From the NCBI RefSeq assembly GCF_000025945.1, contig NC_006138.1:180001-212000 (forward strand): a DNA stretch of 32,000 bases, given 5' to 3'. Of this stretch, positions 7,905 to 26,968 are shown in pieces. The notes under the pieces were generated by a model. It had not been told where the DNA came from, did no database searches, and worked only from the letters and a program-made list of their open reading frames with translations. A program made the position numbers and the translations under genes. The DNA comes from Desulfotalea psychrophila LSv54. GTDB taxonomy: Bacteria > Desulfobacterota > Desulfobulbia > Desulfobulbales > Desulfocapsaceae. Position 1 is the stretch's first letter. Each line of letters begins with the position of its first letter.

Positions 7905-7987
7905 AGCAGTGCCCCAGTCGCCAAGCGACACCATTGTCTCAGCCATTGGTGAAACAAAAAGTTTCCTCTAGGGCAATTGGAGAAAAA

Positions 7988-9364: not shown

Positions 9365-9764
9365 GGCAGGCCCTGTCCTGATCATTAGCTCGGCTACGCC
9401 TTGTTTTTTTTTGGGAAGTACCTTCTCTTCAGCAACAATGCCTTTGCATGGTAGAGAAATGAGTTCACCGTTTTTTAGAATATTCTTGTAGTAAAGAATC
9501 TTATTCTCATTTTTTTCTTAAATGAATAAGTAAGCCAAACTGTAAGCAGCTGCAGGATCTCCCCTCCCTCCTCCCCCTTAAAAGTTGATGGCTTTTGCTC
9601 CAGAGATATCACAAACTTTTCTATCTTACGAATAGGCTTTGTTGTACCAGACATGTATCATAGGACTTTGCTGAAATAACTGAAGAGTTCAGGGAATGTC
9701 GGCACCTCTCAGGTGAAAGGTATCGTTCAGCCTCAGACATATATATTTAATTGGAGTGTTGAGT

Positions 9765-11055: not shown

Positions 11056-11670
11056 CTACGCCTCGTGATAAATGCATAACAAGTTATTATCCGGTTTCCT
11101 GATATCATCGCAAAACACAATTTGACAACGCTTTTTCATCCATGACACCCAGTTTTTAACTGGATATCTCCTACATAATCCAGATCCCTTCCAGCCTTAC
11201 CGATCAACTTACAGCACTCCAACCTAAACGCCCACGGCTACTCCCCCTTACAAAGGGGTGTATTGACGATCTCCAATCATCTTCCTACACTATTTCTTTG
11301 TTATGAGCAATGATTAAGGATTGTTAGATGTACGTGTTGGGGGCCTATGAGTGGTTATCGGAAATTCTGCAGAGCAACATTGGACAATGGCGAAAAAGAG
11401 AGGCACAGGCGCTAGCAGGATTGAAATATAGGAAAGAGTTGTGCTGGTGACAGCTTATTGAATGAGGCCAGCGTGGTGAAGAAAAGAGTATGGGAGCAAG
11501 CAGGGTGCTGTGCTGCAGGTAGAGATGCCGATAAAGCGCATGATTCTTCACACGGAGGAGACACAGGGCGCCCAAACGGTGTAGGCCGCTCACGGGGCCT
11601 CTCCGAGCTAACAGAACTGGCTTTTAAACTTTTGCTGCTTGCTGAAGGAGAGGGAATCTACAGAAGCGGG

Positions 11671-11884
11671 TATCTAGCTCCAGAGGAGATGAAACAGGGG
11701 ATTGGTGGCACAGGAGGGTGAAAATTCTTGTCTGCCCTTGAGTGGGGCGGGGATCGCTGCTCGAAACATTCCTTCAATCTGCTTACATAGTAGTTACACA
11801 GCCACATTGCCACATTGCCTACCAGTTCACAGGACAAAAAAAAAGGTCAATATCACTCAAAGAGTAATATTGACCTTTCTAATT
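11671..11884. repeat. Diverged copy ('arm A') of the sequence that follows the tRNA-Met 3' end; homologous to 24687-24873
   Basis: By-eye alignment shows long identical blocks (TATCTAGCTC.AGAGGAGATGAAACAGGGGATTGGTGGCACAGGAGG; GGGCGGGGATCGCTGCTCGAAACATT; AATCTGCTTACATAGT). Each copy ends in a different terminator hairpin next to the tRNA-derived core. Confidence 0.8.
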
Positions 11885-11935
11885 TGGTGGCGATACAGGG
11901 AATCGAACCCCGGACACTACGGATATGAGCCGTAT
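11885..11935 (-). repeat. Partial tRNA-Met copy (3' 51 nt): distal att core of the island
   Basis: 51/51 identity with 24874-24924 (CCA end back to the anticodon stem of the intact tRNA). Identity ends abruptly at ..GAGCCGTAT. Confidence 0.9.
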
Positions 11936-12108
11936 CGTATGCTGTTTTGATTAACATTGATTAATATTGATTTAACACCTAATTTCAGGTATAAATACAG
12001 AATCGACACATACAAATCAACATCTACAAATTGATTAATATTGACCAAATTTGCTTACATAGTGCTTACACAGTGCTTACACGGTGTCTAGCTCCAGAGG
12101 AACCGGCC

Positions 12109-13428
12109 ATGCCACGATTGACATTAAATAGAATTAGAAACGCTAAGCTCCCACCTAATAAAAAACAGATTTTTCTCTGGGATGAAGATGCCAAGGGCCT
12201 GGGGGTACGTATCACTGGAAGCGCAAAAGTGTTCATCTTCCAAAGTCGCATGCTGATGCCTGATAAAAATGGCATCCTGAAACCATCTACTTTCAGAATA
12301 AAGATAGGCGGATGTGATTCAGTCCTCCTGGAAGATGCACGCAATGTGGCCAGGCGTTATGCGGCACAAGTGGCCGAGGGGATAGATCCACGCCAAGCAC
12401 GTCAACGGACTGCTGAGAACGAAGCCACGGAGAGACAAGAAAGGAAACGACAAGATGTGACTATTGGCAAAGCATGGCCAACCTACATGGAAGAACGTCG
12501 CCCAAACTGGTCAACAAAATACTACTCCGACCATGAGCGCATTATCTCTCCAGGCGGCAAACAGAAAAAGAGAGGCAAAGGCCTGACTGTAGCGGGCCCC
12601 TTAGCCAGTATTGCCAACCTACCTCTTTCAAGTGTGACAGCCGATTCTATAAAAAAATGGTTGGCAGATGAACAGCCCAAGCGCCCGACAGAAACCAGAC
12701 GAGCTTTTGAAATGCTTCGAACCTTCCTGAATTGGTGCGAAGCTGACAAACGCTACCACGGCCTTGCTCCCCCTAATGCATGCTCTGCCAAAATCAAGAA
12801 AGACAACTTGACTAAAAAGAACTCACGGGACGACGCCCTGCAACGAGAGCAGCTTTCTGTCTGGTTTGCTTCAGTACGGCGCTATGAAAATAAAGTTCTA
12901 TCAGCATACGTCCAAATGCTCTTCCTTATAGGTGCCAGACGTGAGGAGCTGCTTTCACTTAAATGGTCTGACGTAGACTTCCGCTGGAAAAAAGTACACA
13001 TCCTTGGCAAAGGCGCTGTGCCGAGAGACCTTCCACTAACCCCATATGTTGCAGCCCTATTATCCAAACTGCCTCGACGTAATGAGTGGGTTTTTTCCTC
13101 AACGCGTGGGAAAGAAGGCCGCCTACAAAGCCCCACCAAAGCTTTTCAAAAGATGATGAGCAGGGCTGAGATTGACGACATTACTCTACATGGGTTACGC
13201 CGATCCTTCTCCACCTTGTCGGAGTGGTTGGAAACGCCGGTTGGGATCGTCTACCAGATCCAAGGGCACGAACCATCAGCCACAGCAGAAAAACATTACA
13301 AGAAGCGACCTGTTGACCTGCTCCGCAAATGGCACATCAAGATTGAAGCCTGGATATTGGAAGAGGCTGGAGTTGAAGTGCCTGGAGCGGATCAAGAAAC
13401 AGGTTTTCGATTAGTAAAAATCGTTTAA
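12109..13428 (+). CDS. int: Tyrosine site-specific integrase, P4-like (N-terminal DUF4102-type arm-binding domain)
   Basis: N-terminus LPPNKKQIFLWDEDAKGLGVRITGSAKVFIFQSR is DUF4102-like. The catalytic region has ..ARREELLSLKWSDVD.., HGLRRSF and a terminal ..EKHY. The ATG at 12109 is 7 nt after AGAGGA; the track's TTG at 12031 is unlikely. Confidence 0.9.
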   Translation: MPRLTLNRIRNAKLPPNKKQIFLWDEDAKGLGVRITGSAKVFIFQSRMLMPDKNGILKPSTFRIKIGGCDSVLLEDARNVARRYAAQVAEGIDPRQARQRTAENEATERQERKRQDVTIGKAWPTYMEERRPNWSTKYYSDHERIISPGGKQKKRGKGLTVAGPLASIANLPLSSVTADSIKKWLADEQPKRPTETRRAFEMLRTFLNWCEADKRYHGLAPPNACSAKIKKDNLTKKNSRDDALQREQLSVWFASVRRYENKVLSAYVQMLFLIGARREELLSLKWSDVDFRWKKVHILGKGAVPRDLPLTPYVAALLSKLPRRNEWVFSSTRGKEGRLQSPTKAFQKMMSRAEIDDITLHGLRRSFSTLSEWLETPVGIVYQIQGHEPSATAEKHYKKRPVDLLRKWHIKIEAWILEEAGVEVPGADQETGFRLVKIV

Positions 13429-13442
13429 GAGGAGATAGGGAT

Positions 13443-14132
13443 ATGAAGTGGATGCCCGTTGTTTCAGAGATTCCTTGGCCAGATGATAACGGAGAAGTGA
13501 TCGGTACGAGGAAGTATATAAGCTGTTATTTTGCTCATTTTTCCGATGATGAAGAGAAAAGGATCTTCAATATCTTAGAGAAATATCCGGTTAGTGAAGT
13601 CAACTTATTCACAAGTATGCTTGCCAAGATATGTACTGATTACGGCGTATTTTTAAAACAGAAAAGAGACCATCAAATACGGAAAGAGATCGACGATAAG
13701 CTCCCGATACTGGAAAAAGCGCACAGTCAGTTAAAATTGCTACAAAAACAAGGACTACCTATAGAACACATAAAATCAGTTCCAGGGGTTTGCCACAGTG
13801 AAGAAGAAAAATCACGACATTATGCTGACAAACATATCAACAAAAAGGCATACTGCGACCTCCCCGTGTGTGCCCGCCGCGCAGAGGAGGCACTGGAGTC
13901 TCTTCTAGGGGTACTGCGAGATCTTCAGCCCGATAAGCCTGGACGTGGCAGAGTAGAAACAGAAGGGGGGTTTGCGCAAGCTATTGCAGACGCTTTTGCA
14001 GAAGTATTCAATAAAAAACCATCGACATGGAGAGAAGGGGTTCTTAGCCAGATATTGGCAATTTGCCTCGAAGGGTTAGGAATTCCACACGAGAATCCAG
14101 AACGGCGCTTAAAAAACCTCGTACATAAATAG
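13443..14132 (+). CDS. Hypothetical protein (229 aa), island-encoded
   Basis: Clean ORF with GGAGATAGGG upstream, starting 14 nt after the int stop. No family recognised. Confidence 0.55.
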   Translation: MKWMPVVSEIPWPDDNGEVIGTRKYISCYFAHFSDDEEKRIFNILEKYPVSEVNLFTSMLAKICTDYGVFLKQKRDHQIRKEIDDKLPILEKAHSQLKLLQKQGLPIEHIKSVPGVCHSEEEKSRHYADKHINKKAYCDLPVCARRAEEALESLLGVLRDLQPDKPGRGRVETEGGFAQAIADAFAEVFNKKPSTWREGVLSQILAICLEGLGIPHENPERRLKNLVHK

Positions 14133-14242
14133 CCTTTTTTTCTTTATTAATGTCTCCTGTATTCCCCACTCATTGCAAGTAATCATACCTCATAACAATG
14201 GCAAATCGTGAATAACCACGAGCCAAAATTATGAGGTAAGCC

Positions 14243-14431
14243 ATGAAGAAAGCATCCTGCTCTAAGCAATTCATTACCACCAACAAATTTTCTGAAATCT
14301 TCGGAGTGAAACCTGATACAGTTCGCAGGAACCTTTGCACCAAAGGTCATTTCTTAGGTATGAAGCCATTAAAGCTGGCAAACGGGCGCTTACTTTGGCC
14401 AGCAATCACCCCCGATCAACTAAAAGGGTGA
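14243..14431 (+). CDS. Small helix-turn-helix DNA-binding protein (excisionase/AlpA-like candidate)
   Basis: 62 aa with GAGG RBS. The segment FITTNKFSEIFGVKPDTVRRNL...GRLLWP resembles the HTH of small island/prophage regulators. Its position between int and the replication genes fits this role. Confidence 0.5.
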   Translation: MKKASCSKQFITTNKFSEIFGVKPDTVRRNLCTKGHFLGMKPLKLANGRLLWPAITPDQLKG

Positions 14432-14435
14432 TTTC

Positions 14436-15353
14436 ATGAATACCAAAAGAAAAGCGGTCCCTCCCCAAAAGGTTGGCGCCATGGGAGAAACCGCTTCAAA
14501 TCAACAAGCCAAGTATAGTTCTTTTCCTGACAATCAGCAAGGACCGACCGACAATCCTGCAGCCAGTCAGCGGCAACGTATTTTTCCCCACCCGAAAGCA
14601 GACGAGCCGACGACAGACATTGCTTTCACAATCATCACCAACCACGACGGCCCACTGACAAAGACGATCCGGCCAGATGGCCAAGGCGGGATCATCAAGA
14701 AGCCTGCTGCAAATCTCGTCAGAGGTGTAACGAAAAGGGTTACCATGCCCTTTAGGAAGTTTGGCCCTTTTCTGCGGACATTGCAGAATAATCAGGCCCT
14801 CTGCCACGGCGTCAGTGATTATCCCCAAGCCAACATTACCTCAAGAGCCAAGTTTAACGGGGAGCCGGACACAATCACAAGGACATCGGAATATTTCCAC
14901 TATCCAACAGGTGCCGGTATCGGCATGTTCGACCACGACCCGAAACCTGGGCAGAAAACGTTGAGCGCAGATGAGTTGCTTGACATTATATATAGTGTCT
15001 GCCCTGATTTTCGCCGCCTGTCGACATGGTGGACGCCGTCAACGAGTTCCTGCATTTTTGATAACAACAAAAATGAGCTGACGGGAATTGGAGCCGGTTT
15101 CCACCTGTACTTCCCGTTTGAGCCTGCAGATAAATTACCGGAATTTGCTGACTGGCTGTCCAGGCAACTTTGGTTAGCAGGCCACGGCCACATCTTTATT
15201 AGCCGAACCGGTTCACTACTTACCCGGACCGTCTTCGATCTGACAGTTTTCTCCCCGGAACGATTGGATTTCGTAGCCGGGGCCGACTGTATTGACTGCA
15301 ATCAACGGTTGCCGGAACCTGTGTACCGCAAAGGATTGGAGGTGTGGGCATGA
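14436..15353 (+). CDS. Hypothetical protein with a weak AEP (primase-polymerase)-like motif pattern
   Basis: 305 aa. Ordered motifs GIGMFDHD (hhhDxD), GAGFHLYF (sxH) and ERLDFVAG (hD). The stop overlaps the helicase start (ATGA at 15350-15353). Confidence 0.4.
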   Translation: MNTKRKAVPPQKVGAMGETASNQQAKYSSFPDNQQGPTDNPAASQRQRIFPHPKADEPTTDIAFTIITNHDGPLTKTIRPDGQGGIIKKPAANLVRGVTKRVTMPFRKFGPFLRTLQNNQALCHGVSDYPQANITSRAKFNGEPDTITRTSEYFHYPTGAGIGMFDHDPKPGQKTLSADELLDIIYSVCPDFRRLSTWWTPSTSSCIFDNNKNELTGIGAGFHLYFPFEPADKLPEFADWLSRQLWLAGHGHIFISRTGSLLTRTVFDLTVFSPERLDFVAGADCIDCNQRLPEPVYRKGLEVWA

Positions 15354-17302
15354 TAGAGTTTACACCGCTAACTGAAGCGCAAAACATGCTGTATGAGGCC
15401 ACCGTTTCGGTTGCGAAAGAAGAAGTCCACGCGGAAGCTGACAGAATCAGACAACAGTACATGTCAGTTGAAGCTATCAAGCTGGCAGAGAAAACTGGTG
15501 TCGATGTTGAGCATGCTGAAGAGACTGTCCGCTTGCGATGTAACGGACACTTGAGCCCAGAGGATATCATTTATTTCCAGAACGGTAGCACGGCCACGGT
15601 GGAAGAAATGCTTGCGGACAGAAGCAAATATGACGGCACGCCCTGTGCTGACCCGCTTGAACGTGAAGAAGGGTTGAATCGGGCAATGTTCTACGCCAAC
15701 GCTGATACCGGCAAGCCACTCATCCACTCTTTCCTTCATGGTGGCCAGATACACCACTTGACCGGCCGACAGGAAGAGCCGGTGGAAGAACATGCACCAT
15801 CCTTTAGCGAACTGCTTGAACGCGCAGCTACCCTGAAGGCAGGAGATACAAAGGGCATGAAAGATATTCTCGAACTTGCGACAGCCCTAGACTCAATCGA
15901 GGAACAGGAACTTTTGCGCAAAATCAAGAAAAACACAGGGATGCCCCTGCAGGCCATGCGCTCGTACACACGCAAGGGTCAAGTGGATTCCAAGGATTTG
16001 GATCACCTCGATATCGCACGTAAGCTCCTGGAAGAGATCGGTAAAGAGAACGTACTGAACTGCGAGGATGGAGTTTTTATATGGCGAGAAAAAGGAGTAT
16101 GGGAGCCGATGAGAAAAGGCGAACTTAAGCACCGATTGCAGAAACTGATAGAGGGGAAGATGCGGGTTATGTCTCAGTGGGTTGTGGGGGCAACAGAGGT
16201 GTTCACAAATGACGTGTATCGGGCGAATCATGAATTCAATATTGGTGATCCGAATGTCATTAACTGCCTTAACGGGGAACTGCACCTAAATCACAAAACC
16301 GGTTCGTGGGAGCCGAAGTCTCATGATAAGCTGGCCTATCGGACTAGTCAGATTCCTGTCGAGTTTGACCCTACTGCAACTGCACCACGATTTAAACAGT
16401 TCTTGAATGAGATATTCGAAACTGATGAGGATAGCCAAGACAAGACAAGAGCGCTGCTGGAAATGTGTGGTTACACGATGGTGGCCCACTGCTCGTATGA
16501 ACTGTTCGTCATCCTTATAGGTACTGGCGCGAACGGTAAAAGCGTTTTTCTTTCGCTACTAGAGGCCATTGTCGGGCCGAAAAACACAGTAGGGGTTCAG
16601 CCAAGCCAGTTCGACAACCGGTTTCAGCGAGGGCACATGCGCCATAAACTCGCCAATATCGTGACGGAGATCAAGCAAGGCGAGGTCATTGCCGATGCAG
16701 AGCTAAAAGGGATTGTCTCAGGTGAACCGTCGACGGTCGAGAACAAATTCAAAGACCCTTTCACCATGCGGCCCCATGTAACGTGTTGGTTTGCGACAAA
16801 TCATATGCCACATACCCGTGACTTTTCGGAGGCGCTGTTCAGGCGCGCCTTGATCCTGAAATTCAACCGCGTCTTCTCAGACGAGGAAAAGAACCCGAAG
16901 CTCAAGGATGAATTGTTTGCAGAATTGCCAGGCATCCTGAATCTGGCTCTCCATGCTTACGCTAATGCTGTTTTGAATGGTTTTACAAAGCCTGACAGCA
17001 GTGAACAGGCGAAAGAAGAATGGCGACTTGAAGCAGATCAGGTTCAGCAGTTCGTTGAGGATTGCTGTGAAAAATCGCCTTACGAGGAAATTGAGTCTTC
17101 AACGCTATTCAGAGCATATCGATCATGGGCAGAGACGAACGGTATACGAAAAATGTTGAGCCAAAAGAGTTTCAGAGACAGGCTCACACGCCTTGGATTT
17201 GGCAGCAAACGGAATAAACAGGCTAGGCTTGTCACAGGGATTGCCATGGCCAACAATTTCCCTGGTAGTGCTGCCGATCTGTTGGGGGAACTTCTCTCTT
17301 GA
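15350..17302 (+). CDS. Phage/plasmid primase P4-family C-terminal domain / D5-like SF3 helicase
   Basis: Walker A ILIGTGANGKSVF, Walker B-like LANIVTEI and motif C WFATNHMP, followed by FRRALILKFNRVF. The ATG at 15350 is 7 nt after GGAGG. Confidence 0.85.
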   Translation: MIEFTPLTEAQNMLYEATVSVAKEEVHAEADRIRQQYMSVEAIKLAEKTGVDVEHAEETVRLRCNGHLSPEDIIYFQNGSTATVEEMLADRSKYDGTPCADPLEREEGLNRAMFYANADTGKPLIHSFLHGGQIHHLTGRQEEPVEEHAPSFSELLERAATLKAGDTKGMKDILELATALDSIEEQELLRKIKKNTGMPLQAMRSYTRKGQVDSKDLDHLDIARKLLEEIGKENVLNCEDGVFIWREKGVWEPMRKGELKHRLQKLIEGKMRVMSQWVVGATEVFTNDVYRANHEFNIGDPNVINCLNGELHLNHKTGSWEPKSHDKLAYRTSQIPVEFDPTATAPRFKQFLNEIFETDEDSQDKTRALLEMCGYTMVAHCSYELFVILIGTGANGKSVFLSLLEAIVGPKNTVGVQPSQFDNRFQRGHMRHKLANIVTEIKQGEVIADAELKGIVSGEPSTVENKFKDPFTMRPHVTCWFATNHMPHTRDFSEALFRRALILKFNRVFSDEEKNPKLKDELFAELPGILNLALHAYANAVLNGFTKPDSSEQAKEEWRLEADQVQQFVEDCCEKSPYEEIESSTLFRAYRSWAETNGIRKMLSQKSFRDRLTRLGFGSKRNKQARLVTGIAMANNFPGSAADLLGELLS

Positions 17303-17426
17303 TGAACGCGTATTGACTTCGTCATATAGACCTGGGTTACTGAAATGGTCCCCATTATTATACGACTGAGCTTTCCCACATTTGGGCATCAGCACCATTT
17401 CCCTTCCTATTTACGGGTGGGCACAT

Positions 17427-17590
17427 GGTGATGGGTGACGGGTGGTGACGGGTGGTGACGGGTTTTTCCACATTACCCAACTTTCAGAAAAAATAAAGTT
17501 CAGTAATTCAAAATCTTCTTTTTCTCATAAATATATCCATGTTATAAAAAGCGTCACCATCCGTCACCACATGGGAAGCATTCTCACCAC
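17427..17590. repeat. Iteron cluster flanking an AT-rich stretch: putative replication origin of the island
   Basis: GGTGATG GGTGACGGGT GGTGACGGGT GGTGACGGGT at 17427-17463. An AT-rich stretch of about 85 bp follows. Inverted copies GTCACCATCCGTCACCAC lie at 17553-17570, plus CTCACCAC at 17583-17590. Confidence 0.55.
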
Positions 17591-17828
17591 GACACATATA
17601 GAAAGCACAAAATGACATAAGAGTAAGGGGATATACAATACTATAGCCTGAGCTTCCCTACTCTCCTTTACTCACTTGTCCTGGTGGAAGGGGGGGGGTA
17701 AAAGTTTGGGGCTTAATTACCTAAGACCGGGATTGCCCTCTAACGTTAACACTAACTCTGAATAATCCACGACAACAACCTTCAGGAATCGTTGTGCGCG
17801 CGCGAGGCGAATTGAAGTTTTCCGGGTA

Positions 17829-18109
17829 GTGCTTGACGCCTCTTTATGGATTTTAAGCAAGGCCGAAGAAAAGCACAGGACCCCCCATCAAAGGTCACTG
17901 GCTGAAACGGCGATGTATCGCTACAAGCAGTTGATCAGCGACAAACTGAACCTTCGCGAATACAACGGCCAAACAGGTAAGTCAGCTTGCGTCCAAGGCT
18001 TTGAACAAAATCAATGCTTTCGGAATACCTGTTCGAGAGGTTTTTTAGTAAAATGGAATGGAGCAGAGAGGAACTGATTTTCTTCTCTCATGATTTATGC
18101 AACAAGGCC
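17829..18109 (+). mobile_element. IS5-family (IS903-like) remnant: frameshifted 3' end of the transposase gene plus the terminal inverted repeat
   Basis: The translated ..HQRSLAETAMYRYKQLISDKLNLREYNGQ.. matches the C-terminus of IS903-group transposases, and ALNKINAFGIPV continues in another frame. GATTTATGCAACAAGGCC (18092-18109) matches 16 of 18 positions of my recollection of the IS903 end (GATTTATTCAACAAAGCC). No 5' part of the IS is present. Confidence 0.75.
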
Positions 18110-18141
18110 CCAACCTACTCCAATTTCACCCTTACCAAGAT

Positions 18142-19100
18142 CCTTCAATGCAGTCACCCCTTTCGAGGTGATTGATACTCGCTCAGGGTTGCTCATATGC
18201 TCCTGCAGGGTCCTTCAATGTAGTCACCCCTTTCGAGGTGATTGATACATTTTTTCAGGTCGATATAGCGCATATCTTTGGCGCTTCAATGTAATCACCC
18301 CTTGCGAGGTGATTGACACGCAGACCTGCAGGCCGACCGTTATAACAGTCCTTGCTTCAATGCAGTCACCCCTTTCAAGGTGATTGATACCGTTTGCCAC
18401 AGGAAAGAGCATCGGCGGTTGATCGCTTCAATGTAGTCACCCCTTTCGAGGTGATTGATACTTCCCGAGATCGGTCAGGTCATAGACGCCAAACTGCTTC
18501 AATGTAGTCACCCCTTTCGAGGTGATTGATACGTCGACAAGGTAGGAGCCGGGCCGAGAGTAGGGGCTTCAATGTAGTCACCCCTTTCGAGGTGATTGAT
18601 ACTCGTCGTCCCAATCCATTCCGCTTGCAACAAACTGCTTCAATGTAGTCACCCCTTTCGAGGTGATTGATACGTACAGACAGGCTTATCATCAGAGTAA
18701 TAGGTGGCTTCAATGTAGTCACCCCTTTCGAGGTGATTGATACATGGGCCGAATGGCAACTCTACGAGTTCTATCCTGCTTCAATGTAGTCACCCCTTTC
18801 GAGGTGATTGATACTGTCTATCGCCTTGATAGCGGTAGATCCCTTGATGCTTCAATGTAGTCACCCCTTTCGAGGTGATTGATACCCGATGATCGGGCAA
18901 TACGTCACTTGTATCGGGTCGCTTCAATGTAGTCACCCCTTTCGAGGTGATTGATACAACCTCGGTCGATGTTTGTGGGGCTGTGTTGATTTGCTTCAAT
19001 GTAGTCACCCCTTTCGAGGTGATTGATACCAGCTCAAACTGATTTTGAGGACAGTGATAAACAGCTTCAATGTAGTCACCCCTTTCGAGGTGATTGATAC
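18142..19100 (-). CRISPR. CRISPR array, 14 x 37-bp repeats and 13 spacers (33-35 bp)
   Basis: The plus-strand repeat is GCTTCAATGTAGTCACCCCTTTCGAGGTGATTGATAC. Repeats start at 18142, 18212, 18283, 18354, 18425, 18496, 18566, 18637, 18707, 18778, 18849, 18921, 18993 and 19064. Repeats 5-14 are identical and repeats 1-4 carry 1-3 substitutions, so the low-coordinate end is the trailer. The minus-strand form GTATCAATCACCTCGAAAGGGGTGACTACATTGAAGC has a 7-bp stem with a GAAA loop and an ATTGAAGC 3' end. Confidence 0.97.
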
Positions 19101-19249
19101 TGCCAGTTAACTAACATGCTAAAAACACATATTCATCCAAGGTGTTTCCGCGAACACACTCAGAAGAACATTACAAGTTGCTGTGAATATATGCGAAAAC
19201 AGAAAATCCTTTATAATATCAATAAGTGCGAACAAGGCCACTTTCCTTG
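19101..19249 (-). promoter_or_regulatory. Putative CRISPR leader
   Basis: AT-rich 149-bp non-coding stretch between the last cas-linked ORF and the conserved end of the array. Confidence 0.5.
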
Positions 19250-19933
19250 CTAGTGAGACCTTCGCGCAGGCAGTAAATATCCCATCTGACCGTTGCGCTG
19301 AATAGTAGCCTCATAAAGATCCCCCCCCCACTCAGTACTCTTTGATTGTACAACTGCCCAAACCCCACTTATGTCTAAAGGAACTGACCATGTTACCCAC
19401 TGATAAAATCCCTTTCTAACACCTAAGCTCGTAACAGGGAGTGCTTCTGCGGCAAGCCACTGCCCAGCAATAACCCCGCGATGTGGAGAAGATGTTGGCG
19501 CCTTCATACCACCAACTTTTGCGGCCATTTTGTTAGCACCAACATCCCAACCCAGACTTGTTATGTTATCTTCGTTCATCCATGGGAGGTTGAGGGCATT
19601 TAAAATATCATCTCGCGTAACACTTATCAGCATTGTTGTAATAACATTGCTAAAACTCACTCTTCCTGCTGTGAGATCTAACGGTATTTTTTCTGCTGTC
19701 TTACTTTTGGGAAGTTCCTCCAAAAGAGAACTCCCCTCTGCGAGATACCTTGACAAGCTCTCTAAAACAATATTTTCATCTACACCAAGTAAAACAGGAT
19801 GCTGATGCTCCCACAATAAATGAGCTTTATGCCCCATACGAGATACAATTGAAAAACACCCCACTGCCGCCATCCAAGCCTGAGCATTTGTCTCAAATAA
19901 ACCTTGCATTTTATATTGCACGTTATTCCTCAC
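19250..19933 (-). CDS. Cas-linked protein of unknown family (up to 227 aa); positional candidate for a Csb3/Cas8g2-like or small-subunit component
   Basis: The ORF overlaps the cas3 stop, is on the same strand, and is the last gene before the leader. The start is uncertain: GTG at 19933, GTG at 19921 (5 nt after GAGGA) or ATG at 19909. No motif recognised. Confidence 0.45.
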   Translation of the reverse strand: MRNNVQYKMQGLFETNAQAWMAAVGCFSIVSRMGHKAHLLWEHQHPVLLGVDENIVLESLSRYLAEGSSLLEELPKSKTAEKIPLDLTAGRVSFSNVITTMLISVTRDDILNALNLPWMNEDNITSLGWDVGANKMAAKVGGMKAPTSSPHRGVIAGQWLAAEALPVTSLGVRKGFYQWVTWSVPLDISGVWAVVQSKSTEWGGDLYEATIQRNGQMGYLLPARRSH

Positions 19934-22184
19934 TTTTACTTTGTACCCAATCTGCTAGCCGAACCATTGCCTCAAGATATGCCAACTGCCATGCCCCATA
20001 TTCTTCATTCAACCTACAGGTCATACTTCCCCAATCTGATCCCCCTGCTTTATGCCACAGGGCAAAGTCTCCGCTTATTGACAAGACACTTCTGTTGTAT
20101 CCATGATGAGTCCCAACAAGATACTTCAACAAGTCGCTCACCTCATCTGACAACATTGATACAGATGCAACTTCATGCCGCCAACCCTTGGGCAAACCGG
20201 ACATACTACGAGCAACCTTCGCTGCCCATGGAGAAATGTGATTTGACTTTGCCAAGGGTGTGGAACATGCTCCAAGCATAGTTTGAAACCGAGGATCTTG
20301 CTTGCCGATATCATGCAAGCGGGCTGCTTGTCGAACAGCCTCATCTGCTGAGAAATTTTTTGCGACTTCAAACACATTGTCTAAGTGGTCACTCAAAGCA
20401 ACTTCATCACCAGATCGTTTTCTTCGTGGAGTTTCTGTAACTATAACTCCTGCTGGATAAAAGGTGATTAAAGGCTTCACAAAAGGTGCATTGGCTTCTT
20501 TGAGAAGCTCGGGAATGTCAGAATCTTCACCTGCTCCTACTAATCTAAACTTTGCTCCTACTTGATTACCTAGATCCTTAACAGGGTCACATTTCTGAGG
20601 CATCCATCCCCACTCATCATAGCCACCATACCGCGTCGGTATGACAATCATACACCCACCGCGTATGCTGTCACCCCTTACAACCCTATCGCCTACAACA
20701 ACAGACCGACGCCCTAGCCAACGTACAACCTCATAAATAGGACATGGCATAGCTTCTGCCATTACTGGAGGTGCTGCTTGAACAATTTCAACCCATTGCT
20801 CAGTTTCACAGGGAAGGTCTTCACGCCACACTACCTGAACAGTGATATTGTCTTTATCGTCACCATGGAGCCAAGGACTAATATCCATATCGACAGATGG
20901 CATGGTTTGCCTCAAACAACGAAGATCTGTATGACTCAAAGGGAAAGGAAGGGAAATTTCTCGCATTGGGGGGCTGCTTGCTTCTATAGCTTTTTTTATT
21001 GCAAGTACGCCAAAATCAACCCGCTTATTTTTACCCTTACCGTGTTGTATTTTTTTGAGCCATGACCATGTACTTTTTAGAATTTTCTTCCCATAAACTT
21101 TGCAATCCTGATCCTTTCCCAGATCAAGATAAACAATCGCCCCCTGACATGCCTGTAATTCTCCAAGCCGATCTAGTCGCCCAAATCTTTGTTGCAAGGC
21201 ATCAATTGGTGCATTTTGAGTTACAAGGGCATCAAAATCTAAATCCGCCCCCACCTCAATGGTTTGTGTTGCCACCACAAAAAGAGGCTGCCTCCCTCGT
21301 CCTCTACTACCACTGAGCATTTGCGGAAGGTATTGATTAAGTATTTCATCTTTATCAGCTGGTCTCACGCGACCTGTGAGGAGAATCTTCTCGCCTGGCA
21401 ATTTAGCAAAAATTGCTCGTGCATGTTTAGTGGTGTTGCATACCACGGCCACAACGCCTTTTACATCCGCCATTAGAAGGTTCGCTTCTTTCACCATTGT
21501 TGACAAAAATTGCTCGTCCGATGGTTTGACCAACTTAACAATCTTTTTACTGGCTAATCTTTTCTTGAGGACAGGATGAGCATAATCTTTAGCAGACAAA
21601 GTCATAGTCCTGTCATCTGTTACAGGTGTCGCTGTCATTGTAACAACGTGCCAGGGTAATATTGAGGGGGGGCGAAGATTCATAATCTGCTTTAAAGTCT
21701 CCGCAAATGGGGTAGAGATATGCGCCTCATCTAAAACAATCATCGCGTCATTCCCAATCAAAGCAGCGTGAATAGGAGCTGACTTCGGACTGACACCATA
21801 CCCGCGCCATAAAAGACGTGAACCAGCTTGGTCTACTGTGGAAACAATAACAACAGGCTCATGTGGATTCAGCATCCACGAGTCATCAATTGTTACTCCA
21901 CCTCTCATTTTTATTACGGTACAACCGATTTTCTCTGCATACTCAGTAACAGAATCTACAATAAGGCGACGATCCACGATATAAATAAGGCGAGTAGGGA
22001 CTTTCGCTCCAATCTCCACAGCATAATGCCAGGCAGCGATTATGGCGGTTTTACCTGAAGCAGTAGGGGTTGATATCGACTCAGGTGGTTGACCTGCTAA
22101 CACCCTTTCTGCAAGAGACAATTGCCAAGGAAATGGACTATATCCATGTTTTCCCTGATACCACTCATCAAATTTGAGAGACAT
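19923..22184 (-). CDS. cas3: Cas3 helicase-nuclease with C-terminal HD domain (type I-G/I-U architecture)
   Basis: SF2 helicase motifs TPTASGKTA (I), VLDEAH (II), MTATP (III), VATQTIEVGADLDFD (V) and QQRFGRLDR (VI). The C-terminal HD-like region has ..LSDHL.., RLHDIGK, WRHEVAS and GTHHG. Confidence 0.9.
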   Translation of the reverse strand: MSLKFDEWYQGKHGYSPFPWQLSLAERVLAGQPPESISTPTASGKTAIIAAWHYAVEIGAKVPTRLIYIVDRRLIVDSVTEYAEKIGCTVIKMRGGVTIDDSWMLNPHEPVVIVSTVDQAGSRLLWRGYGVSPKSAPIHAALIGNDAMIVLDEAHISTPFAETLKQIMNLRPPSILPWHVVTMTATPVTDDRTMTLSAKDYAHPVLKKRLASKKIVKLVKPSDEQFLSTMVKEANLLMADVKGVVAVVCNTTKHARAIFAKLPGEKILLTGRVRPADKDEILNQYLPQMLSGSRGRGRQPLFVVATQTIEVGADLDFDALVTQNAPIDALQQRFGRLDRLGELQACQGAIVYLDLGKDQDCKVYGKKILKSTWSWLKKIQHGKGKNKRVDFGVLAIKKAIEASSPPMREISLPFPLSHTDLRCLRQTMPSVDMDISPWLHGDDKDNITVQVVWREDLPCETEQWVEIVQAAPPVMAEAMPCPIYEVVRWLGRRSVVVGDRVVRGDSIRGGCMIVIPTRYGGYDEWGWMPQKCDPVKDLGNQVGAKFRLVGAGEDSDIPELLKEANAPFVKPLITFYPAGVIVTETPRRKRSGDEVALSDHLDNVFEVAKNFSADEAVRQAARLHDIGKQDPRFQTMLGACSTPLAKSNHISPWAAKVARSMSGLPKGWRHEVASVSMLSDEVSDLLKYLVGTHHGYNRSVLSISGDFALWHKAGGSDWGSMTCRLNEEYGAWQLAYLEAMVRLADWVQSKSEE

Positions 22185-23457
22185 TGTTTAGCTCCTCTGA
22201 GTAAAAGGGTCTACATAAACCACTGCCAAAATACCGATCGGCACCGATTATAATTGGCCCTATTATATATGATGACCATACTATAACGACATGGCACATA
22301 TATCGCCTGTTCTTCCTTGAGGGATATTTTCTTGCATCTATAGTGCCTTTTATCGGGGAGGTATTGCCACAAGAAATGTACGCAGGCAAAGGTAAGCCCA
22401 TTTTAGCCAAGCTTTCAGCAACAATGCTTTCAGGAGAAACCTTCTTTGTAGGCCAACGATCAAGAGCTACAGGGGTAACAGTTGCAAAAGATTTTGAGGC
22501 CTTATTCCAAGCACTACTTTGTAAACCCTTCAAACCAACATTGTCTAGCTCTAGCTCAACCTCTCCAAGATTTCTTACCCTCATCAAAGATGCACCTACA
22601 ACTCCAACCTCTAAGTCACTTACGTCTGACGGAAGCCAACAACCTAGCCCTAGGATATGTCCCTTTGCATACTTATGACCAACATCAGGAATTGCCGCCC
22701 AAGCAACATGACGATAATCTCCGTGACCATGTACAAGTGGTGGCAAGGATGAATCTTCAGCCTGACTTATAACTGCCCTCCGTAACTTATCTGTCCAATA
22801 CGTTGTTTGGTGGATATCAAGCTGTCTTTGAGGACGTAGTACAAAAAGCTCCCCCCATCTTTCATTAGAGACAAGAGTCTTCTTTTCTCTATACGAGGTA
22901 TAAGGCGCAGCAGGGCTTCTCGCACCTACTTCAAAATGCGCTATAAGTTCTTGCAACCTACCCGTATATGGAGTCCTAACCCGTAAACCTCCATCTTTAT
23001 CTGGTACCCAATTAAACTTAACACTATCAGCAGGAACAACCCTTCCGATAACAAGACTTGTGGCTCTGCCGATGTGAGTCAGTTGTTCAACAATTTTTGT
23101 AAGAGGAGCAATACATTTTTCGGGAACATCTCTCCAAAGATAACTCACGATATTATTCTTTGGATGAACAACTGGGAGATGTCTTGCTGTACCCGTATGA
23201 TAATCTTTTCCTCTACGAAAATTTTCCGGCACATATTGCAGCGGGGCTCTAGGACACAATGCTTCTTCAAATTGCATCAAAGGAGGCGATTCAAGGTACT
23301 TTAACACCTCCAGATCTTCGCCTATTTCAGCGGCTGTTGCGACCATGGCTTGAAATTTTCGATCTGGGGCCGGAGGCCATTCACCTCTTTGAGGTGATGC
23401 TGGATCTGATAACTGCGGCTTAACCAGAAATTCTATCTGCGCCGCAAAGTCACTCAT
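22168..23457 (-). CDS. csb2: Csb2-like (GSU0054-family, Cas5/Cas6-type RAMP) protein of type I-G systems
   Basis: The N-terminal GEWPPAPDRKFQAMVATAA and C-terminal ..IGPIIIGADRYFGSGLCRP resemble the Csb2 family as I recall it. The ATG at 23457 follows GAGGAGAGGA and overlaps the cas7 stop (ATGA). Confidence 0.65.
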   Translation of the reverse strand: MSDFAAQIEFLVKPQLSDPASPQRGEWPPAPDRKFQAMVATAAEIGEDLEVLKYLESPPLMQFEEALCPRAPLQYVPENFRRGKDYHTGTARHLPVVHPKNNIVSYLWRDVPEKCIAPLTKIVEQLTHIGRATSLVIGRVVPADSVKFNWVPDKDGGLRVRTPYTGRLQELIAHFEVGARSPAAPYTSYREKKTLVSNERWGELFVLRPQRQLDIHQTTYWTDKLRRAVISQAEDSSLPPLVHGHGDYRHVAWAAIPDVGHKYAKGHILGLGCWLPSDVSDLEVGVVGASLMRVRNLGEVELELDNVGLKGLQSSAWNKASKSFATVTPVALDRWPTKKVSPESIVAESLAKMGLPLPAYISCGNTSPIKGTIDARKYPSRKNRRYMCHVVIVWSSYIIGPIIIGADRYFGSGLCRPFYSEELNNVSQI

Positions 23458-24490
23458 TCCTCTCCTCGTGGAAGAAGACCCACCAGAGCACTCCCAGCCG
23501 TCAAACATATCGGCTCTTGGTTAAAAGAAAGACCATGTTCTTTTGCCACAGCCAATGCTTCTTTTAGCTTAGCGGTTGACGAAGGAAGATTGAATGCTAC
23601 CTGCTCGCCATTCGATCTTAAAACATAGGACTCACGACTAGCTGTATAAAGCTCACAACCAGAACGTAAATCTAATTTGTCCATGACCAGAGAAACTCCT
23701 AGTAAAGCTAACTGTATGAGTACCTCACGGCCTGCTTGATCTCGTTCTGGGCTAGATGTACCAGCTTCATCAGGAAAACTATAGCGGCTTAACCGCGTCA
23801 GAGATATTGCTCCGTTTAACTCTATACGTCCTGCAAAGACACCTTTATCCGCTGTATCTGGAATATCACTATGCCCCAATTTAGAAGGGTTTTACCACCT
23901 TCTGGATCGGGAGTAATTGTTCCATCCTTCAATGAATGGAGGGGCAGAGTTAGCTTTGATCCCCAAGGGGGTCAATTCTTTGGGCTTGTATGCTGAGCCA
24001 CAAAAACATCATATCCCCATATTTCGCATGACACTGATCGAGATATCTTCACTCCTTTTACACTTTTTCCAGCATGAGAATCCCAGCCACCTAAAGAAGT
24101 GTCATGGAGCATAAGTAAAAGAGCAGTTGCATTCTTTGTGGTACTACTGAGTAATTGATGTCCTATATCAGAATTTCTCCATGAGTCTTCCCCCAAAAAG
24201 GAGTCACGAAGAATGGCATCATATATCCTATGAGGCAACTCATTCACAGAGAGCGTTTGATTGGCAACAGATGTTGTTATCTCTGGAAGGATGCCAAGAG
24301 CGGCAAGCTCTGCTTCAATACGATTTGCAAATGATCCCACAGAATCAACCTGCACAGCCTTAGCTTTGCCCGTCCCTTTATCTAAAGCAACAAAGTTGTG
24401 ACCTACACCTGCAAATGTTGGTGGGTATATGTGATCACTACCATTAACATTCTTGAGGTTTGCTTTAATAGAAATAGCGACATCTGACAT
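23454..24490 (-). pseudogene. cas7: Cas7 (Csb1/GSU0053-like RAMP) gene, interrupted
   Basis: The N-terminal piece (24490 to 23972) starts at MSDVAISIK... with AAGGAG 7 nt upstream and contains ..LGGWDSHAG... The C-terminal piece (23879 to 23454) is in a different frame. The 23880-23975 interval has stops in all three frames. The combined length of about 340 aa fits a single Cas7. Confidence 0.6.
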
Positions 24491-24686
24491 ATTCTTTCTC
24501 CTTAAATGGGTGGTACAAACATGGATGACAACCAACTTGATTTCGAGGCGTCTATATGATAGGAGCAATAGACATTATTCCACTATTTCATTCAAGTCTT
24601 TGTTTTTAAAAAAGAATAAAAGTTACTGAGTCTTTATGAGACGGAGAGAGAGAGAAAGACTCTACCTCAAAGAAGGGGTTGAGCCG

Positions 24687-24873
24687 TATCTAGCTCAAGA
24701 GGAGATGAAACAGGGGATTGGTGGCACAGGAGGTAAAAACTCTTCGTTTGCTCTTGGGGTGGGCGGGGATCGCTGCTCGAAACATTGATCCAATCTGCTT
24801 ACATAGTGCTTACACGAGCAAAAGACACAAAAAAAGGGTTACAGCCGAATGACTGTAACCCTTTGGAATAACT
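24687..24873. repeat. 'Arm B': island sequence immediately downstream of the tRNA 3' end, homologous to 11671-11884
   Basis: See the 11671-11884 entry. It lacks the CCACATTG-repeat segment of about 27 bp that is present in arm A. Confidence 0.8.
24829..24862 (-). terminator. Intrinsic terminator of tRNA-Met
   Basis: On the minus strand, AGGGTTACAG-tcattcgg-CTGTAACCCT is followed by T7, 11 nt after the CCA end. Confidence 0.75.
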
Positions 24874-24950
24874 TGGTGGCGATACAGGGAATCGAACCCC
24901 GGACACTACGGATATGAGCCGTATGCTCTAACCGACTGAGCTACATCGCC
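24874..24950 (-). tRNA. tRNA-Met (anticodon CAU; elongator type, though Ile2/lysidine identity cannot be excluded)
   Basis: Hand-folded 77-nt cloverleaf: GGCGAUG UA GCUC AGUCGGUUA GAGC A UACGG CUCAUAU CCGUA GUGUC CGGGG UUCGAUU CCCUG UAUCGCC A CCA. The G1-C72 pair and the absence of a 3xGC anticodon stem argue against an initiator tRNA. Confidence 0.9.

Positions 24951-25256: not shown

Positions 25257-26968
<1,712 letters not shown>

What the first reader, a model, noticed from the sequence alone, without database searches (positions are those of the whole stretch)
11885..24950. CRISPR-Cas is cargo of a tRNA-Met-integrated, P4-like (integrase plus primase/helicase plus origin) island bounded by a perfect 51-bp repeat
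Directly visible:
- The 3' 51 nt of the intact tRNA-Met (24874-24924) recur exactly at 11885-11935 in the same orientation.
- Between the copies lie a DUF4102-type tyrosine integrase, a small HTH gene, an AEP-like ORF coupled to a P4/D5 SF3 helicase, an iteron/AT-rich region, an IS remnant and the CRISPR-Cas locus.
- There are no capsid, tail or conjugation genes.

This is the layout of a satellite-like or mobilisable integrative element. P4-like satellites are known to carry defence cargo, but a full type I CRISPR-Cas interference module on such a replicon is unusual as far as I know.

The integrase sits at the end distal to the intact tRNA, which is less common than the tRNA-adjacent arrangement.
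Basis: partly seen in the sequence, partly recalled or inferred. Interest (0 to 1): 0.78.

Follow-up and report, generated by a model that had tools for sequence, protein, structure and literature searches.

The report
CRISPR-carrying replicative island at tRNA-Met
A 13-kb mobile-element-like island with its own integrase, primase, helicase and replication origin sits in a tRNA-Met gene of Desulfotalea psychrophila and carries a compact CRISPR-Cas cassette that has no spacer-acquisition genes; islands of this kind are known, but this cargo on so small an element is uncommon.

Summary
The last 51 nt of tRNA-Met (24874-24924) recur exactly at 11885-11935, and nowhere else in the window. The window is from Desulfotalea psychrophila LSv54.

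The 12,938 bp between the copies hold:
- a DUF4102-type tyrosine integrase
- a small HTH gene
- a primase split from a P4/D5-type helicase
- an origin of inverted iterons around a 76% AT spacer
- a transposase remnant
- a 14-repeat CRISPR array
- a compact type I-G cassette (cas7g, csb2, cas3g, small cas8g) with no cas1, cas2 or cas4

As sequenced, cas7g has about three frame changes.

Related islands share the backbone and carry other cargo. One, at tRNA-Gln (L102), has nearly identical attachment-site geometry, with 11-bp tandem units at both ends and the integrase beside the partial tRNA copy.

Homology continues past the left repeat for 131 nt at 88%. This stretch carries the island's own arm motif, so I read it as the relic of an earlier sister island, not an unrelated duplication.

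The island is not a P4-like satellite in the strict sense, because no capsid-hijacking genes were found. No empty site or excision junction could be tested. It is a new member of a known kind.

The parts
11655..11799 (.). Relic of the tRNA-proximal end of an earlier sister island (copy D3'). It has two degenerate 11-bp arm units (11780-11799) and motif B (11669-11687), and lies outside the island proper.
   Evidence: 131 nt at 88% identity to 24686-24815. Motif hits. The same motif follows tRNA-Met in L030 and L026.
11840..11880 (-). Terminator-like hairpin downstream of the partial tRNA copy.
   Evidence: 19-pair stem followed by a T run. Its sequence is unrelated to the hairpin at 24833-24864.
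11885..11935 (-). Distal attachment-site copy: the 3' 51 nt of tRNA-Met, from the anticodon stem to CCA.
   Evidence: Exact copy of 24874-24924.
11936..12108 (+). Integrase-proximal arm. It has three tandem 11-bp units TGCTTACAYAG (12052-12084) and motif B (12083-12101) overlapping the int ribosome-binding site.
   Evidence: Tandem Repeats Finder period 11; motif search gave 4 hits against 0 expected; families D4 and D9. Same geometry as L102.
12109..13428 (+). Tyrosine integrase with an arm-binding N-terminal domain (DUF4102 type).
   Evidence: PF13356 E 6.5e-14 and PF00589 E 2.4e-17; phrog_1 integrase E 5e-35. ARREE, HGLRRS and KHY motifs are visible in the translation.
13443..14132 (+). 229-aa ORF of unknown function. 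Relatives have an ORF of similar size at the same position.
   Evidence: No Pfam, NCBIfam, PHROG or PADLOC hit. ORFs of 225-245 aa occupy this position in L082, L100 and L102 but are not sequence-similar.
14243..14431 (+). 62-aa putative HTH protein, a candidate AlpA- or excisionase-like regulator.
   Evidence: Only weak hits: PF08220 E 0.0098 and phrog_4779 E 0.0048. The equivalent position holds AlpA in L100 and a weak HTH_17 hit in L081.
14436..15353 (+). Primase, AEP-like, split from the helicase. The first ~55 aa are low-confidence, so the true start may be further downstream.
   Evidence: Invariant D166xD168, D268 and near-invariant H223 in 38 homologues. Model pLDDT 86. phrog_16593 'DNA primase' E 3.4e-37. 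TM 0.71-0.74 to N-termini of large phage replication proteins. Weak best PDB hits are AEPs, LigD-pol and Prim-PolC. 57 phage records match, several of the listed ones annotated DNA primase.
15344..17302 (+). P4/D5-type SF3 helicase. Its N-terminal ~180 aa continue the primase protein.
   Evidence: PF08706, PF19263, PF03288; TIGR01613 E 8e-66. Its N-terminus hits the next segment of phrog_16593. The N-terminal domain is conserved while the helicase is swapped in L100-L102.
17427..17568 (.). Putative replication origin: four direct GGTGAYGG iterons, an 89-nt spacer of 76% AT, and two inverted iterons.
   Evidence: 5 of the 9 window hits cluster here against 1.6 expected window-wide. The same architecture sits at the same place with different iteron sequences in L082 and L081.
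17829..18077 (+). Remnant of an IS transposase C-terminus, at the junction between the replication module and the CRISPR array.
   Evidence: phrog_2262 transposase E 3.5e-5 and phrog_33026 E 2.5e-9.
18142..19100 (-). CRISPR array: 14 repeats of 37 nt and 13 unique spacers. The four cas-distal repeats are degenerate.
   Evidence: (Rfam CRISPR-DR53). Orientation is inferred from homologous arrays downstream of cas genes in L093-L095.
19250..19933 (-). Small Cas8g-type large subunit (227 aa).
   Evidence: PADLOC Cas8g (CAS-I-U effector_LS) E 2e-18. NCBIfam NF049934 scores 57.8 bits, below its cut-off of 65. Homologues of 227-251 aa hold the same position in L093, L094 and L103.
19923..22184 (-). 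Cas3g helicase-nuclease with a C-terminal HD domain.
   Evidence: TIGR02621 E 2.6e-184; PADLOC Cas3.
22168..23508 (-). Csb2 (Cas5-Cas6 fusion), the type I-G signature protein.
   Evidence: PF09609 E 2e-207; TIGR02165 E 2.5e-111. 100% identical to the D. psychrophila Csb2 entry P0211.
23454..24490 (-). csb1/cas7g, disrupted by about three frame changes between codons ~170 and ~200.
   Evidence: tblastn with intact 344-aa homologues switches frames. The N-terminal part matches TIGR02570 E 3.9e-62.
24686..24815 (.). tRNA-proximal arm (copy D3), with motif B (24685-24703) and two 11-bp arm units (24796-24815).
   Evidence: The units end 58 nt before the core, against 57 nt in L102.
24833..24864 (-). 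Island-supplied terminator-like hairpin for the reconstituted tRNA.
24874..24950 (-). Intact tRNA-Met(CAU). Its 3' 51 nt (24874-24924) form the proximal attachment-site copy.
   Evidence: The groES-groEL-tRNA-Met order is conserved across Desulfobulbales loci.

Best explanation
A 12,989-bp element (12,938 bp plus one 51-bp core) entered the chromosome by tyrosine-integrase recombination between its attP and the 3' half of tRNA-Met. The crossover probably lies in the anticodon loop; that point is an inference from the extent of the identity block.

The element restores the tRNA and gives it a terminator of its own. The integrase, which has an arm-binding N-terminal domain, would bind the 11-bp units found at both ends: three copies just upstream of int and two copies 58 nt from the core at the other end.

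After excision, probably helped by the small HTH protein, the circle would replicate from the iteron origin. It would use its own two-part primase-helicase, which is of phage origin.

The cargo is a compact type I-G CRISPR-Cas effector cassette with its array. It has no spacer-acquisition genes, so any new spacers would need Cas1, Cas2 and Cas4 supplied from elsewhere.

No transfer genes are present. Spread would therefore depend on a helper phage or another vehicle, which is inferred and not shown.

The stretch just left of the island is the decayed end of an earlier, related island at the same site, so this tRNA-Met acts as a recurrent landing pad.

Shown here: the anatomy, the protein families, and the conservation of the design in relatives. 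Inferred: excision, replication, current activity and the transfer route.
For: **Repeat and recombination genes**
- An exact 51-nt direct repeat of the tRNA 3' half, with no third copy.
- An integrase with PF13356 plus PF00589, and catalytic motifs visible.
- The 11-bp motif occurs only at the island ends and in the relic: 4 hits against 0 expected.

**Independent relative L102**
- Intact tRNA-Gln, a 47-nt partial copy, and the integrase beside the partial copy.
- Five 11-bp units lie 26 nt upstream of int and about 120 nt from the core. Two units lie 57 nt from the core at the other end.
- The window has 24, 116 and 58 nt at the same places.
- L082 shows hairpin, partial tRNA, two 11-bp units, then int.

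**Origin**
- The origin architecture is conserved in position, with different iteron sequences, in L081 and L082.

**Primase-helicase**
-.

**Backbone with other cargo**
- L100 has SNF2, DUF4391, a methyltransferase and a restriction endonuclease. L102 has small ORFs.

**The cas cassette is itself mobile**
- The same four genes plus an array, with no cas1, cas2 or cas4 within 10 kb (as far as each contig extends), occur beside a D5 helicase and an integrase (L093).
- They also occur directly after tRNA-Arg (L094), beside a resolvase and Wadjet genes with an IS in csb1 (L095), and beside an integrase fragment and a large serine recombinase (L103).

**Site is a hotspot**
- tRNA-Met follows groEL in most of the 80 Desulfobulbales loci, but none carries the window's genes beyond it.
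- L030 has the same motif plus a truncated integrase there.
Against: - No empty site or circular junction could be examined. The closest relatives fetched are only about 80% identical in groEL DNA, and synteny ends at the tRNA in all of them.
- There are signs of decay: an IS remnant inside the island, and cas7g with about three frame changes.
- The HTH protein and the 229-aa ORF have no secure assignment.
- No packaging, capsid-redirecting or conjugative-mobilisation gene was found, so the transfer route is open.
- The arm-site role of the 11-bp units rests on position and analogy only.
- The integrases of the window and L102 are not detectably similar by BLAST.
Confidence: 0.8

Rival explanations
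1. Composite origin. The cas cassette plus array and the integrase-replication module were separate elements: two tandem islands, or an IS-mediated insertion. They fused, so CRISPR-Cas is a late passenger rather than original cargo of this island family.
For: - The IS remnant lies exactly between the origin and the array trailer.
- None of the other primase-family islands examined carries cas genes.
- The cassette stands next to unrelated recombinases or alone beside a tRNA elsewhere.
- Tandem accretion happened at this very site, as the relic at 11655-11799 shows.
Against: - No internal copy of the core exists between the two modules.
- The matching arm motifs lie outside both modules, so the present att-bounded unit includes the cassette.
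- In practice this concerns history. It does not change what would excise today.
Confidence: 0.25
2. Fixed relic. The island integrated once but is now immobile and decaying, so the CRISPR-Cas is chromosomal in practice and probably inactive.
For: - cas7g has about three frame changes within ~100 nt.
- There is an IS remnant.
- The neighbouring sister island has already decayed to a stub.
- No spacer matched anything searched.
Against: - The integrase, primase and helicase ORFs are intact and full-length relative to homologues.
- The two core copies are 51/51 identical.
- Ten of the 14 repeats are identical.
- groEL, an essential gene, also shows a single frameshift in this sequence. Some of the frame changes may therefore be sequence errors.
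Confidence: 0.3
3. The 51-bp repeat is part of a larger segmental duplication unrelated to integration.
For: Homology does extend beyond the 51 bp: 131 nt at 88% to the left of both copies.
Against: - Identity is discontinuous. It is 100% in the tRNA part, the hairpins in between are unrelated in sequence and differ by 27 nt in length, and the next block is 88%.
- The extra block carries the same 11-bp motif that is tandemly repeated upstream of int.
- L102 has the same design with its motif only inside the island.
- The motif also follows tRNA-Met in two other MAGs, one of them beside an integrase fragment.
Confidence: 0.03
4. A true P4-family phage satellite that hijacks a P2-like helper.
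For: - The size of 13 kb is close to P4.
- It has a DUF4102-type integrase, a helicase in the P4 primase C-terminal family (TIGR01613), and an origin next to it.
Against: - No ORF matches Psu, Sid, Delta or any capsid, terminase or packaging family.
- The primase is a separate ORF of a phage primase family, not the N-terminal part of a single primase-helicase protein as in P4 alpha.
- Published surveys report that P4-like satellites lack CRISPR-Cas (PMC9122126).
Confidence: 0.05

Closest known systems
Tycheposons and related cargo-carrying, tRNA-targeting replicative islands (Hackl et al., bioRxiv 10.1101/2020.12.28.424599)
   Same: Tyrosine integrase plus primase/helicase, flanked by a full and a partial tRNA. 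Variable cargo. Successive integrations at one tRNA push older elements outward and leave degenerate remnants.
   Different: Tycheposons were described in Prochlorococcus, with their own integrase clades. No CRISPR-Cas cargo is mentioned in the passages I read. Lineage membership was not tested here.
Satellite phage P4 and P4-like satellites
   Same: About 12-13 kb, tRNA-integrated, with a DUF4102-type integrase, a P4/D5-family SF3 helicase and an adjacent iteron origin. They are known to carry defence cargo (PMC9122126).
   Different: No Psu, Sid, Delta or epsilon hijacking genes. The primase is a separate ORF. P4-like elements are reported to lack large systems such as CRISPR-Cas because of the ~12 kb capsid limit (PMC9122126).
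PICIs and marine virion-encapsidated integrative mobile elements (VEIMEs, PMC9618062)
   Same: Backbone of integrase, AlpA-type regulator, primase-helicase and origin, at a similar size.
   Different: No terS, capsid-morphogenesis or other packaging genes were detected here.
Vibrio genomic islands carrying CRISPR-Cas, such as VPI-6, GI-24 and islands at tRNA-Met (PMC6360697)
   Same: CRISPR-Cas lies inside integrase-bearing islands with att sites, some next to tRNA-Met.
   Different: Those islands are 25-30 kb. In the passages I read, the canonical type I-F systems there include cas1. No self-replication module is mentioned there.
Adaptation-less CRISPR-Cas on mobile elements (Tn7-associated mini type I-F; PMC6360697)
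   Same: A compact effector module with an array but without cas1 and cas2, carried by a mobile element.
   Different: The Tn7-associated mini I-F system also lacks Cas3 (PMC6360697) and, to my knowledge, guides transposition. This cassette keeps a Cas3g with both helicase and HD nuclease domains, so it looks like a DNA-destroying system.
Canonical type I-G (formerly I-U) CRISPR-Cas, e.g. Thioalkalivibrio sulfidiphilus (PMC9638904)
   Same: Csb2 signature protein, Cas7g, Cas3g, a Cas8g-family subunit and 36-37-nt repeats.
   Different: Gene order is cas7-csb2-cas3-cas8g. Cas8g is very small (227 aa) and Csb2 short (~420 aa). There is no cas4-cas1 or cas2. The paper notes that Cas8g size variants exist.

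Membership tests
tRNA-integrated genomic island made by a tyrosine integrase | Direct repeat of the tRNA 3' part bounding the element, with one intact tRNA | tested here: met
   51/51 identity between 11885-11935 and 24874-24924, with only two copies.
tRNA-integrated genomic island made by a tyrosine integrase | Integrase gene inside the element, with catalytic and arm-binding domains | tested here: met
   PF00589 plus PF13356. R, HxxR and Y motifs are visible.
tRNA-integrated genomic island made by a tyrosine integrase | Absent from related genomes (empty site) | tested here: inconclusive
   80 Desulfobulbales loci keep groES-groEL, and most also keep tRNA-Met after it. None has the island or the window's left flank, so no direct empty-site join can be shown.
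tRNA-integrated genomic island made by a tyrosine integrase | Excision to a circle (attP junction) | not testable with these tools
   This needs reads or PCR from a culture.
P4-like satellite | P4-type integrase and alpha-type primase-helicase with an origin | tested here: inconclusive
   The integrase domain type and the helicase (TIGR01613) fit. The primase is a separate ORF of phrog_16593 type.
P4-like satellite | Helper-hijacking genes (Psu, Sid, Delta, epsilon) | tested here: not met
   No such family hit any of the 10 main island ORFs in Pfam or NCBIfam, nor any of the six backbone ORFs and small Cas8g scanned in PHROGs. The 229-aa ORF is unassigned.
PICI | int, alpA-type regulator, pri-rep and ori module | tested here: met
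   The layout is present, although the regulator assignment is weak.
PICI | Packaging or capsid-redirecting genes (terS, ppi, cpm, capsid) | tested here: not met
   No hit.
Tycheposon-like replicative cargo island | Integrase plus primase/helicase, full and partial tRNA flanks, variable cargo, tandem remnants | tested here: met
   Features are taken from bioRxiv 10.1101/2020.12.28.424599.
Tycheposon-like replicative cargo island | Membership of the tycheposon integrase and replication gene clusters | not tested
   No tycheposon sequences were at hand.
Type I-G CRISPR-Cas | Csb2 (Cas5-Cas6 fusion) signature | tested here: met
   TIGR02165 at 373 bits against a cut-off of 45; PF09609.
Type I-G CRISPR-Cas | Cas7g (Csb1) and Cas3g with a C-terminal HD domain | tested here: met
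   TIGR02570 and TIGR02621. cas7g is frameshifted as sequenced.
Type I-G CRISPR-Cas | Cas8g large subunit | tested here: inconclusive
   PADLOC Cas8g E 2e-18 over part of the model. NCBIfam NF049934 is below its cut-off. No PDB sequence match.
Type I-G CRISPR-Cas | Adaptation module (cas4-cas1, cas2) | tested here: not met
   None was found among the island ORFs scanned against Pfam and NCBIfam, and none appears among the genes called within 10 kb (as far as each contig extends) of the four homologous cassettes.

The most novel reading that the evidence does not exclude
The four-gene, adaptation-less type I-G cassette (cas7g-csb2-cas3g-mini cas8g plus a short array) may be a size-minimised CRISPR weapon specialised for life on small mobile elements. 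It would move between satellite-sized replicative islands and tRNA or integrase hotspots. It would borrow spacer acquisition from resident systems and protect the element, or its host, against competing phages or elements. If the island is packaged by a helper phage, it would be, to my knowledge, the first phage-satellite-like element carrying a Cas3-armed CRISPR system.
Probability: 0.2. Interest if true: 0.7.

Novelty: new member of a known kind. Interest (0 to 1): 0.45.

Why it matters
The island shows that a Cas3-armed CRISPR effector module can fit inside a 13-kb self-replicating integrative element. Published surveys of P4-like satellites report no CRISPR-Cas there and attribute this to capsid size limits.

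The work also defines a recurrent island backbone in sulfate-reducing Desulfobulbales. Its attachment-site geometry is strikingly conserved, and that gives concrete, testable integrase-binding and origin sequences.

The compact, adaptation-less I-G cassette recurs next to recombinases and tRNAs in five genomes, which marks it as mobile cargo. It is also small enough to be a candidate for engineering.

Tried and rejected
**Empty-site comparison**
- A groES-anchored scan of one genome per species returned 80 Desulfobulbales loci.
- Neither nucleotide nor protein searches found the island or the window's left-flank genes beyond tRNA-Met, so there is no usable comparator.

**Exact-protein look-ups**
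- Look-ups of window proteins (GroES, Cas3g, the helicase) found nothing on record.

**Wider database scans**
- A plasmid DNA search with the backbone gave no match.
- A metagenome scan with the helicase gave only distant relatives at 41-54% identity.
- Csb2 had no relative in viral contigs.

**Spacers**
- No spacer matched the window, any fetched locus, or viral contigs (two spacers tried there).

**Third core copy**
- A search for a third, degenerate copy that would bound the relic island found none.

**Unassigned ORFs**
- A profile search of solved structures with the primase family found nothing by sequence.
- The small Cas8g also had no solved-structure match.
- The 229-aa ORF and the positional equivalents in relatives share no detectable similarity.

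**Rejected readings**
- A simple segmental duplication, because the identity is discontinuous and the extra block carries the arm motif.
- A strict P4 or PICI identity, because there are no hijacking or packaging genes.
- The idea that the 227-aa gene is a truncated fragment, because its homologues are 227-251 aa.

Full report
**Source**

The helicase, primase and Csb2 proteins are 100% identical to entries from Desulfotalea psychrophila LSv54, on a 3,523,383-bp contig. The window is therefore a piece of that chromosome.

**Observation**

One tRNA-Met(CAU) lies at 24874-24950 on the minus strand.
- Its last 51 nt, from the anticodon stem to CCA, recur exactly at 11885-11935.
- Sub-patterns allowing three mismatches hit only these two places, with none in shuffles.
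- A whole-window scan found no other 51-mer with at least 30 matches.
- Each copy is followed on the tRNA strand by a terminator-like hairpin of unrelated sequence: 11880-11840 and 24864-24833.

**Contents of the 12,938 bp between the copies**

Reading left to right:
- **Integrase (12109-13428).** It has the arm-binding domain PF13356 and the catalytic domain PF00589.
- **Unassigned ORF (13443-14132).** 229 aa, no family hit.
- **Small HTH ORF (14243-14431).** 62 aa with only weak HTH hits. Its positional equivalents in relatives are AlpA or a weak HTH_17 hit.
- **Primase (14436-15353).**
- **Helicase (15344-17302).** It carries D5_N, DUF5906 and Pox_D5 domains and passes the 'primase, P4 family' C-terminal model.
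- **Iteron region (17427-17568).**
- **Transposase C-terminal remnant (17829-18077)**.
- **CRISPR array (18142-19100).** 14 repeats and 13 unique spacers. The four repeats farthest from the cas genes are degenerate.
- **cas genes on the minus strand.** A 227-aa Cas8g-like protein, Cas3g, Csb2, and Csb1/Cas7g.

No ORF matched a capsid, tail, terminase, relaxase or conjugation family.

**The primase**

- The 305-aa ORF belongs to a family of about 250-aa proteins with no Pfam model.
- Across 38 members the invariant or near-invariant residues include D166xD168, H223 and D268. This is the pattern of archaeo-eukaryotic primases (my reading).
- The model is confident, with pLDDT 86.
- It superposes at TM 0.71-0.74 on the N-terminal domains of 541-1206-aa phage replication proteins.
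- Its best solved-structure hits are weak, but they are AEP enzymes: the LigD polymerase domain and Prim-PolC.
- It matches positions 3-230 of PHROG 16593 'DNA primase'. The N-terminus of the next gene matches positions 263-364 of the same profile. The two genes are therefore a split primase-helicase.
- 57 phage records encode relatives, several of the listed ones annotated DNA primase.

**The origin**

- Four direct GGTGAYGG units (17427-17461) and two inverted units (17551-17568) flank an 89-nt spacer.
- The spacer is 76% AT, against 54% for the island as a whole.
- Directly after the helicase stop codon of two relatives the same design recurs with other iteron sequences. L082 has GGTGACGC with an 85-nt, 74% AT spacer. 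L081 has GGGACRC with an 83-nt, 71% AT spacer.
- Conserved position and architecture with a changed sequence is what a cognate helicase-origin pair predicts.

**Attachment-site arms**

- The 11-bp unit TGCTTACAYAG occurs three times in tandem at 12052-12084. That is 116 nt from the core and 24 nt before the int start codon.
- It occurs twice at 24796-24815, 58 nt from the other core copy.
- A second motif (TCTAGCTCMAGAGGA) is also shared by both ends (family D9).

An unrelated island gives a close parallel. In L102:
- An intact tRNA-Gln and a 47-nt partial copy bound 9.1 kb.
- The order is int, a 225-aa ORF, a 94-aa ORF, primase, an AAA_25 helicase and small ORFs.
- The integrase again lies beside the partial copy.
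- Five tandem 11-bp units (AGCGGTACWGG) lie about 120 nt from the core and 26 nt before int. Two more lie 57 nt from the core at the far end.

L082 shows a hairpin, a partial tRNA 3' end, two 11-bp units, then int.

The repeated units are good candidates for arm-type integrase sites.

**The larger duplication**

- Left of both core copies there is a further 131 nt at 88% identity: 11670-11799 against 24686-24815.
- The left copy lies outside the island.
- It is separated from the perfect core by a non-homologous hairpin, and it carries degenerate copies of the arm motif.
- In L102 the arm motif is found only inside the island.
- In two other MAGs (L030, L026) the same 20-nt motif follows the tRNA-Met terminator. 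L030 also has a truncated integrase there.

I conclude that 11655-11884 is the stub of an earlier sister island. A newer insertion pushed it outward, as described for tycheposons.

The low-GC stretch further left holds a MazG-like gene and a DUF2971 protein. The latter matches the PADLOC candidate defence family PDC-S31 at E 1e-61. No left boundary could be found.

**Relatives of the backbone**

- L082 and L083 have int, a 240-aa ORF, an 84-aa ORF, an HTH, primase and helicase.
- L100 has tRNA-Leu, int, a 245-aa ORF, two AlpA genes, primase and a 742-aa protein, followed by SNF2, DUF4391, a methyltransferase and a restriction endonuclease.
- L102 carries only small ORFs as cargo.
- The primase and the first ~150-180 aa of the next protein are conserved throughout, while the helicase domain and the integrase are exchanged.

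**The CRISPR-Cas cassette**

- The order is csb1 (344 aa when intact), csb2 (~420 aa), cas3g (~755 aa), a 227-251-aa protein (split in L095) and a short array of 37-nt repeats ending in ATTGAAGC.
- This order recurs in Desulfogranum marinum, D. mediterraneum, a Desulfuromonas genome and one metagenome contig.
- None of these has cas1, cas2 or cas4 within 10 kb, as far as each contig extends.

Their settings are all of mobile type:

| Locus | Setting of the cassette |
|---|---|
| L093 | beside a D5 helicase and an integrase |
| L094 | about 600 nt after tRNA-Arg |
| L095 | beside a resolvase and Wadjet genes, with an IS inside csb1 |
| L103 | beside an integrase fragment and a large serine recombinase |

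- The 227-aa protein matches PADLOC's Cas8g model, so the effector gene set is complete. The literature notes Cas8g size variants in type I-G.
- In this window csb1 changes frame about three times between codons 170 and 200, so as sequenced the backbone subunit is broken.
- groEL also shows one frameshift, at codon 442, between two otherwise well-conserved halves (91% and 81% identical to a Desulfosediminicola GroEL). Sequence errors therefore cannot be excluded.

**Comparison with known systems**

- The element works like a tycheposon-, PICI- or P4-type integrative replicon. It fails the strict tests for P4-like satellites and PICIs because no hijacking or packaging genes are present.
- CRISPR-Cas inside integrase-bearing islands, including islands at tRNA-Met, is documented in Vibrio.
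- P4-like satellites are reported to lack CRISPR-Cas, which is attributed to the ~12 kb capsid limit.
- What is less ordinary here is a Cas3-armed, adaptation-less cassette inside a 13-kb replicative island, and the near-identical attachment-site geometry in distant relatives.

**Limits**

- No empty site, excision junction, helper phage or spacer target could be established.
- The closest relatives fetched are too distant to compare directly.
- The exact-protein index did not hold this genome's proteins.

**Verdict**

It is a new member of a known kind and of moderate interest.

Noticed in passing
window 25355-26911 (frame change near 25586-25590): groEL is split by a single frameshift at about codon 442. 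Both halves stay 81-91% identical to a Desulfosediminicola GroEL. This suggests a sequence error or a very recent mutation in an essential gene.
   Followed up: partly
window 10441-11055 (minus strand) and 9756-10124: A DUF2971 protein matches the PADLOC candidate defence family PDC-S31 over its full length (E 1e-61). A MazG-like pyrophosphatase lies next to it. Both sit in the low-GC stretch just outside the island.
   Followed up: partly
window 7928-8227 and 8975-9274: A 300-nt tandem duplication at 78% identity covers two weak PilZ-domain ORFs (PF07238 below its cut-off; 7841-8317 and 9035-9364). Each is followed by a similar A-rich, terminator-like motif.
   Followed up: no
L102 7108-7376 and 16159-16311: A 9.1-kb island at tRNA-Gln has attachment-site spacing almost identical to the window island (120/26/57 nt against 116/24/58 nt). 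Its 11-bp unit, its tRNA and its integrase sequence are all different.
   Followed up: yes
L094 8285-8966: In Desulfogranum mediterraneum the same adaptation-less I-G cassette starts about 600 nt after tRNA-Arg. No integrase and no repeat of the tRNA end occur within 13 kb.
   Followed up: partly
L095 7270-10001: In a Desulfuromonas genome csb1 of the homologous cassette is interrupted by a DDE transposase gene. The cassette lies next to JetD-type (Wadjet) genes and a resolvase.
   Followed up: no
L030 12197-12560: Downstream of tRNA-Met in a Desulfopila MAG, a short repeat of the tRNA 3' flank (CCAATAACGCTA) and a second terminator enclose about 340 bp that contain the window's arm motif. A truncated integrase follows.
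   Followed up: partly
window 24686-24815 and 11670-11799: The ~75 nt between the two shared motifs of the 131-nt repeat are also conserved and have no assigned role. Both copies lie upstream of minus-strand defence genes.
   Followed up: no
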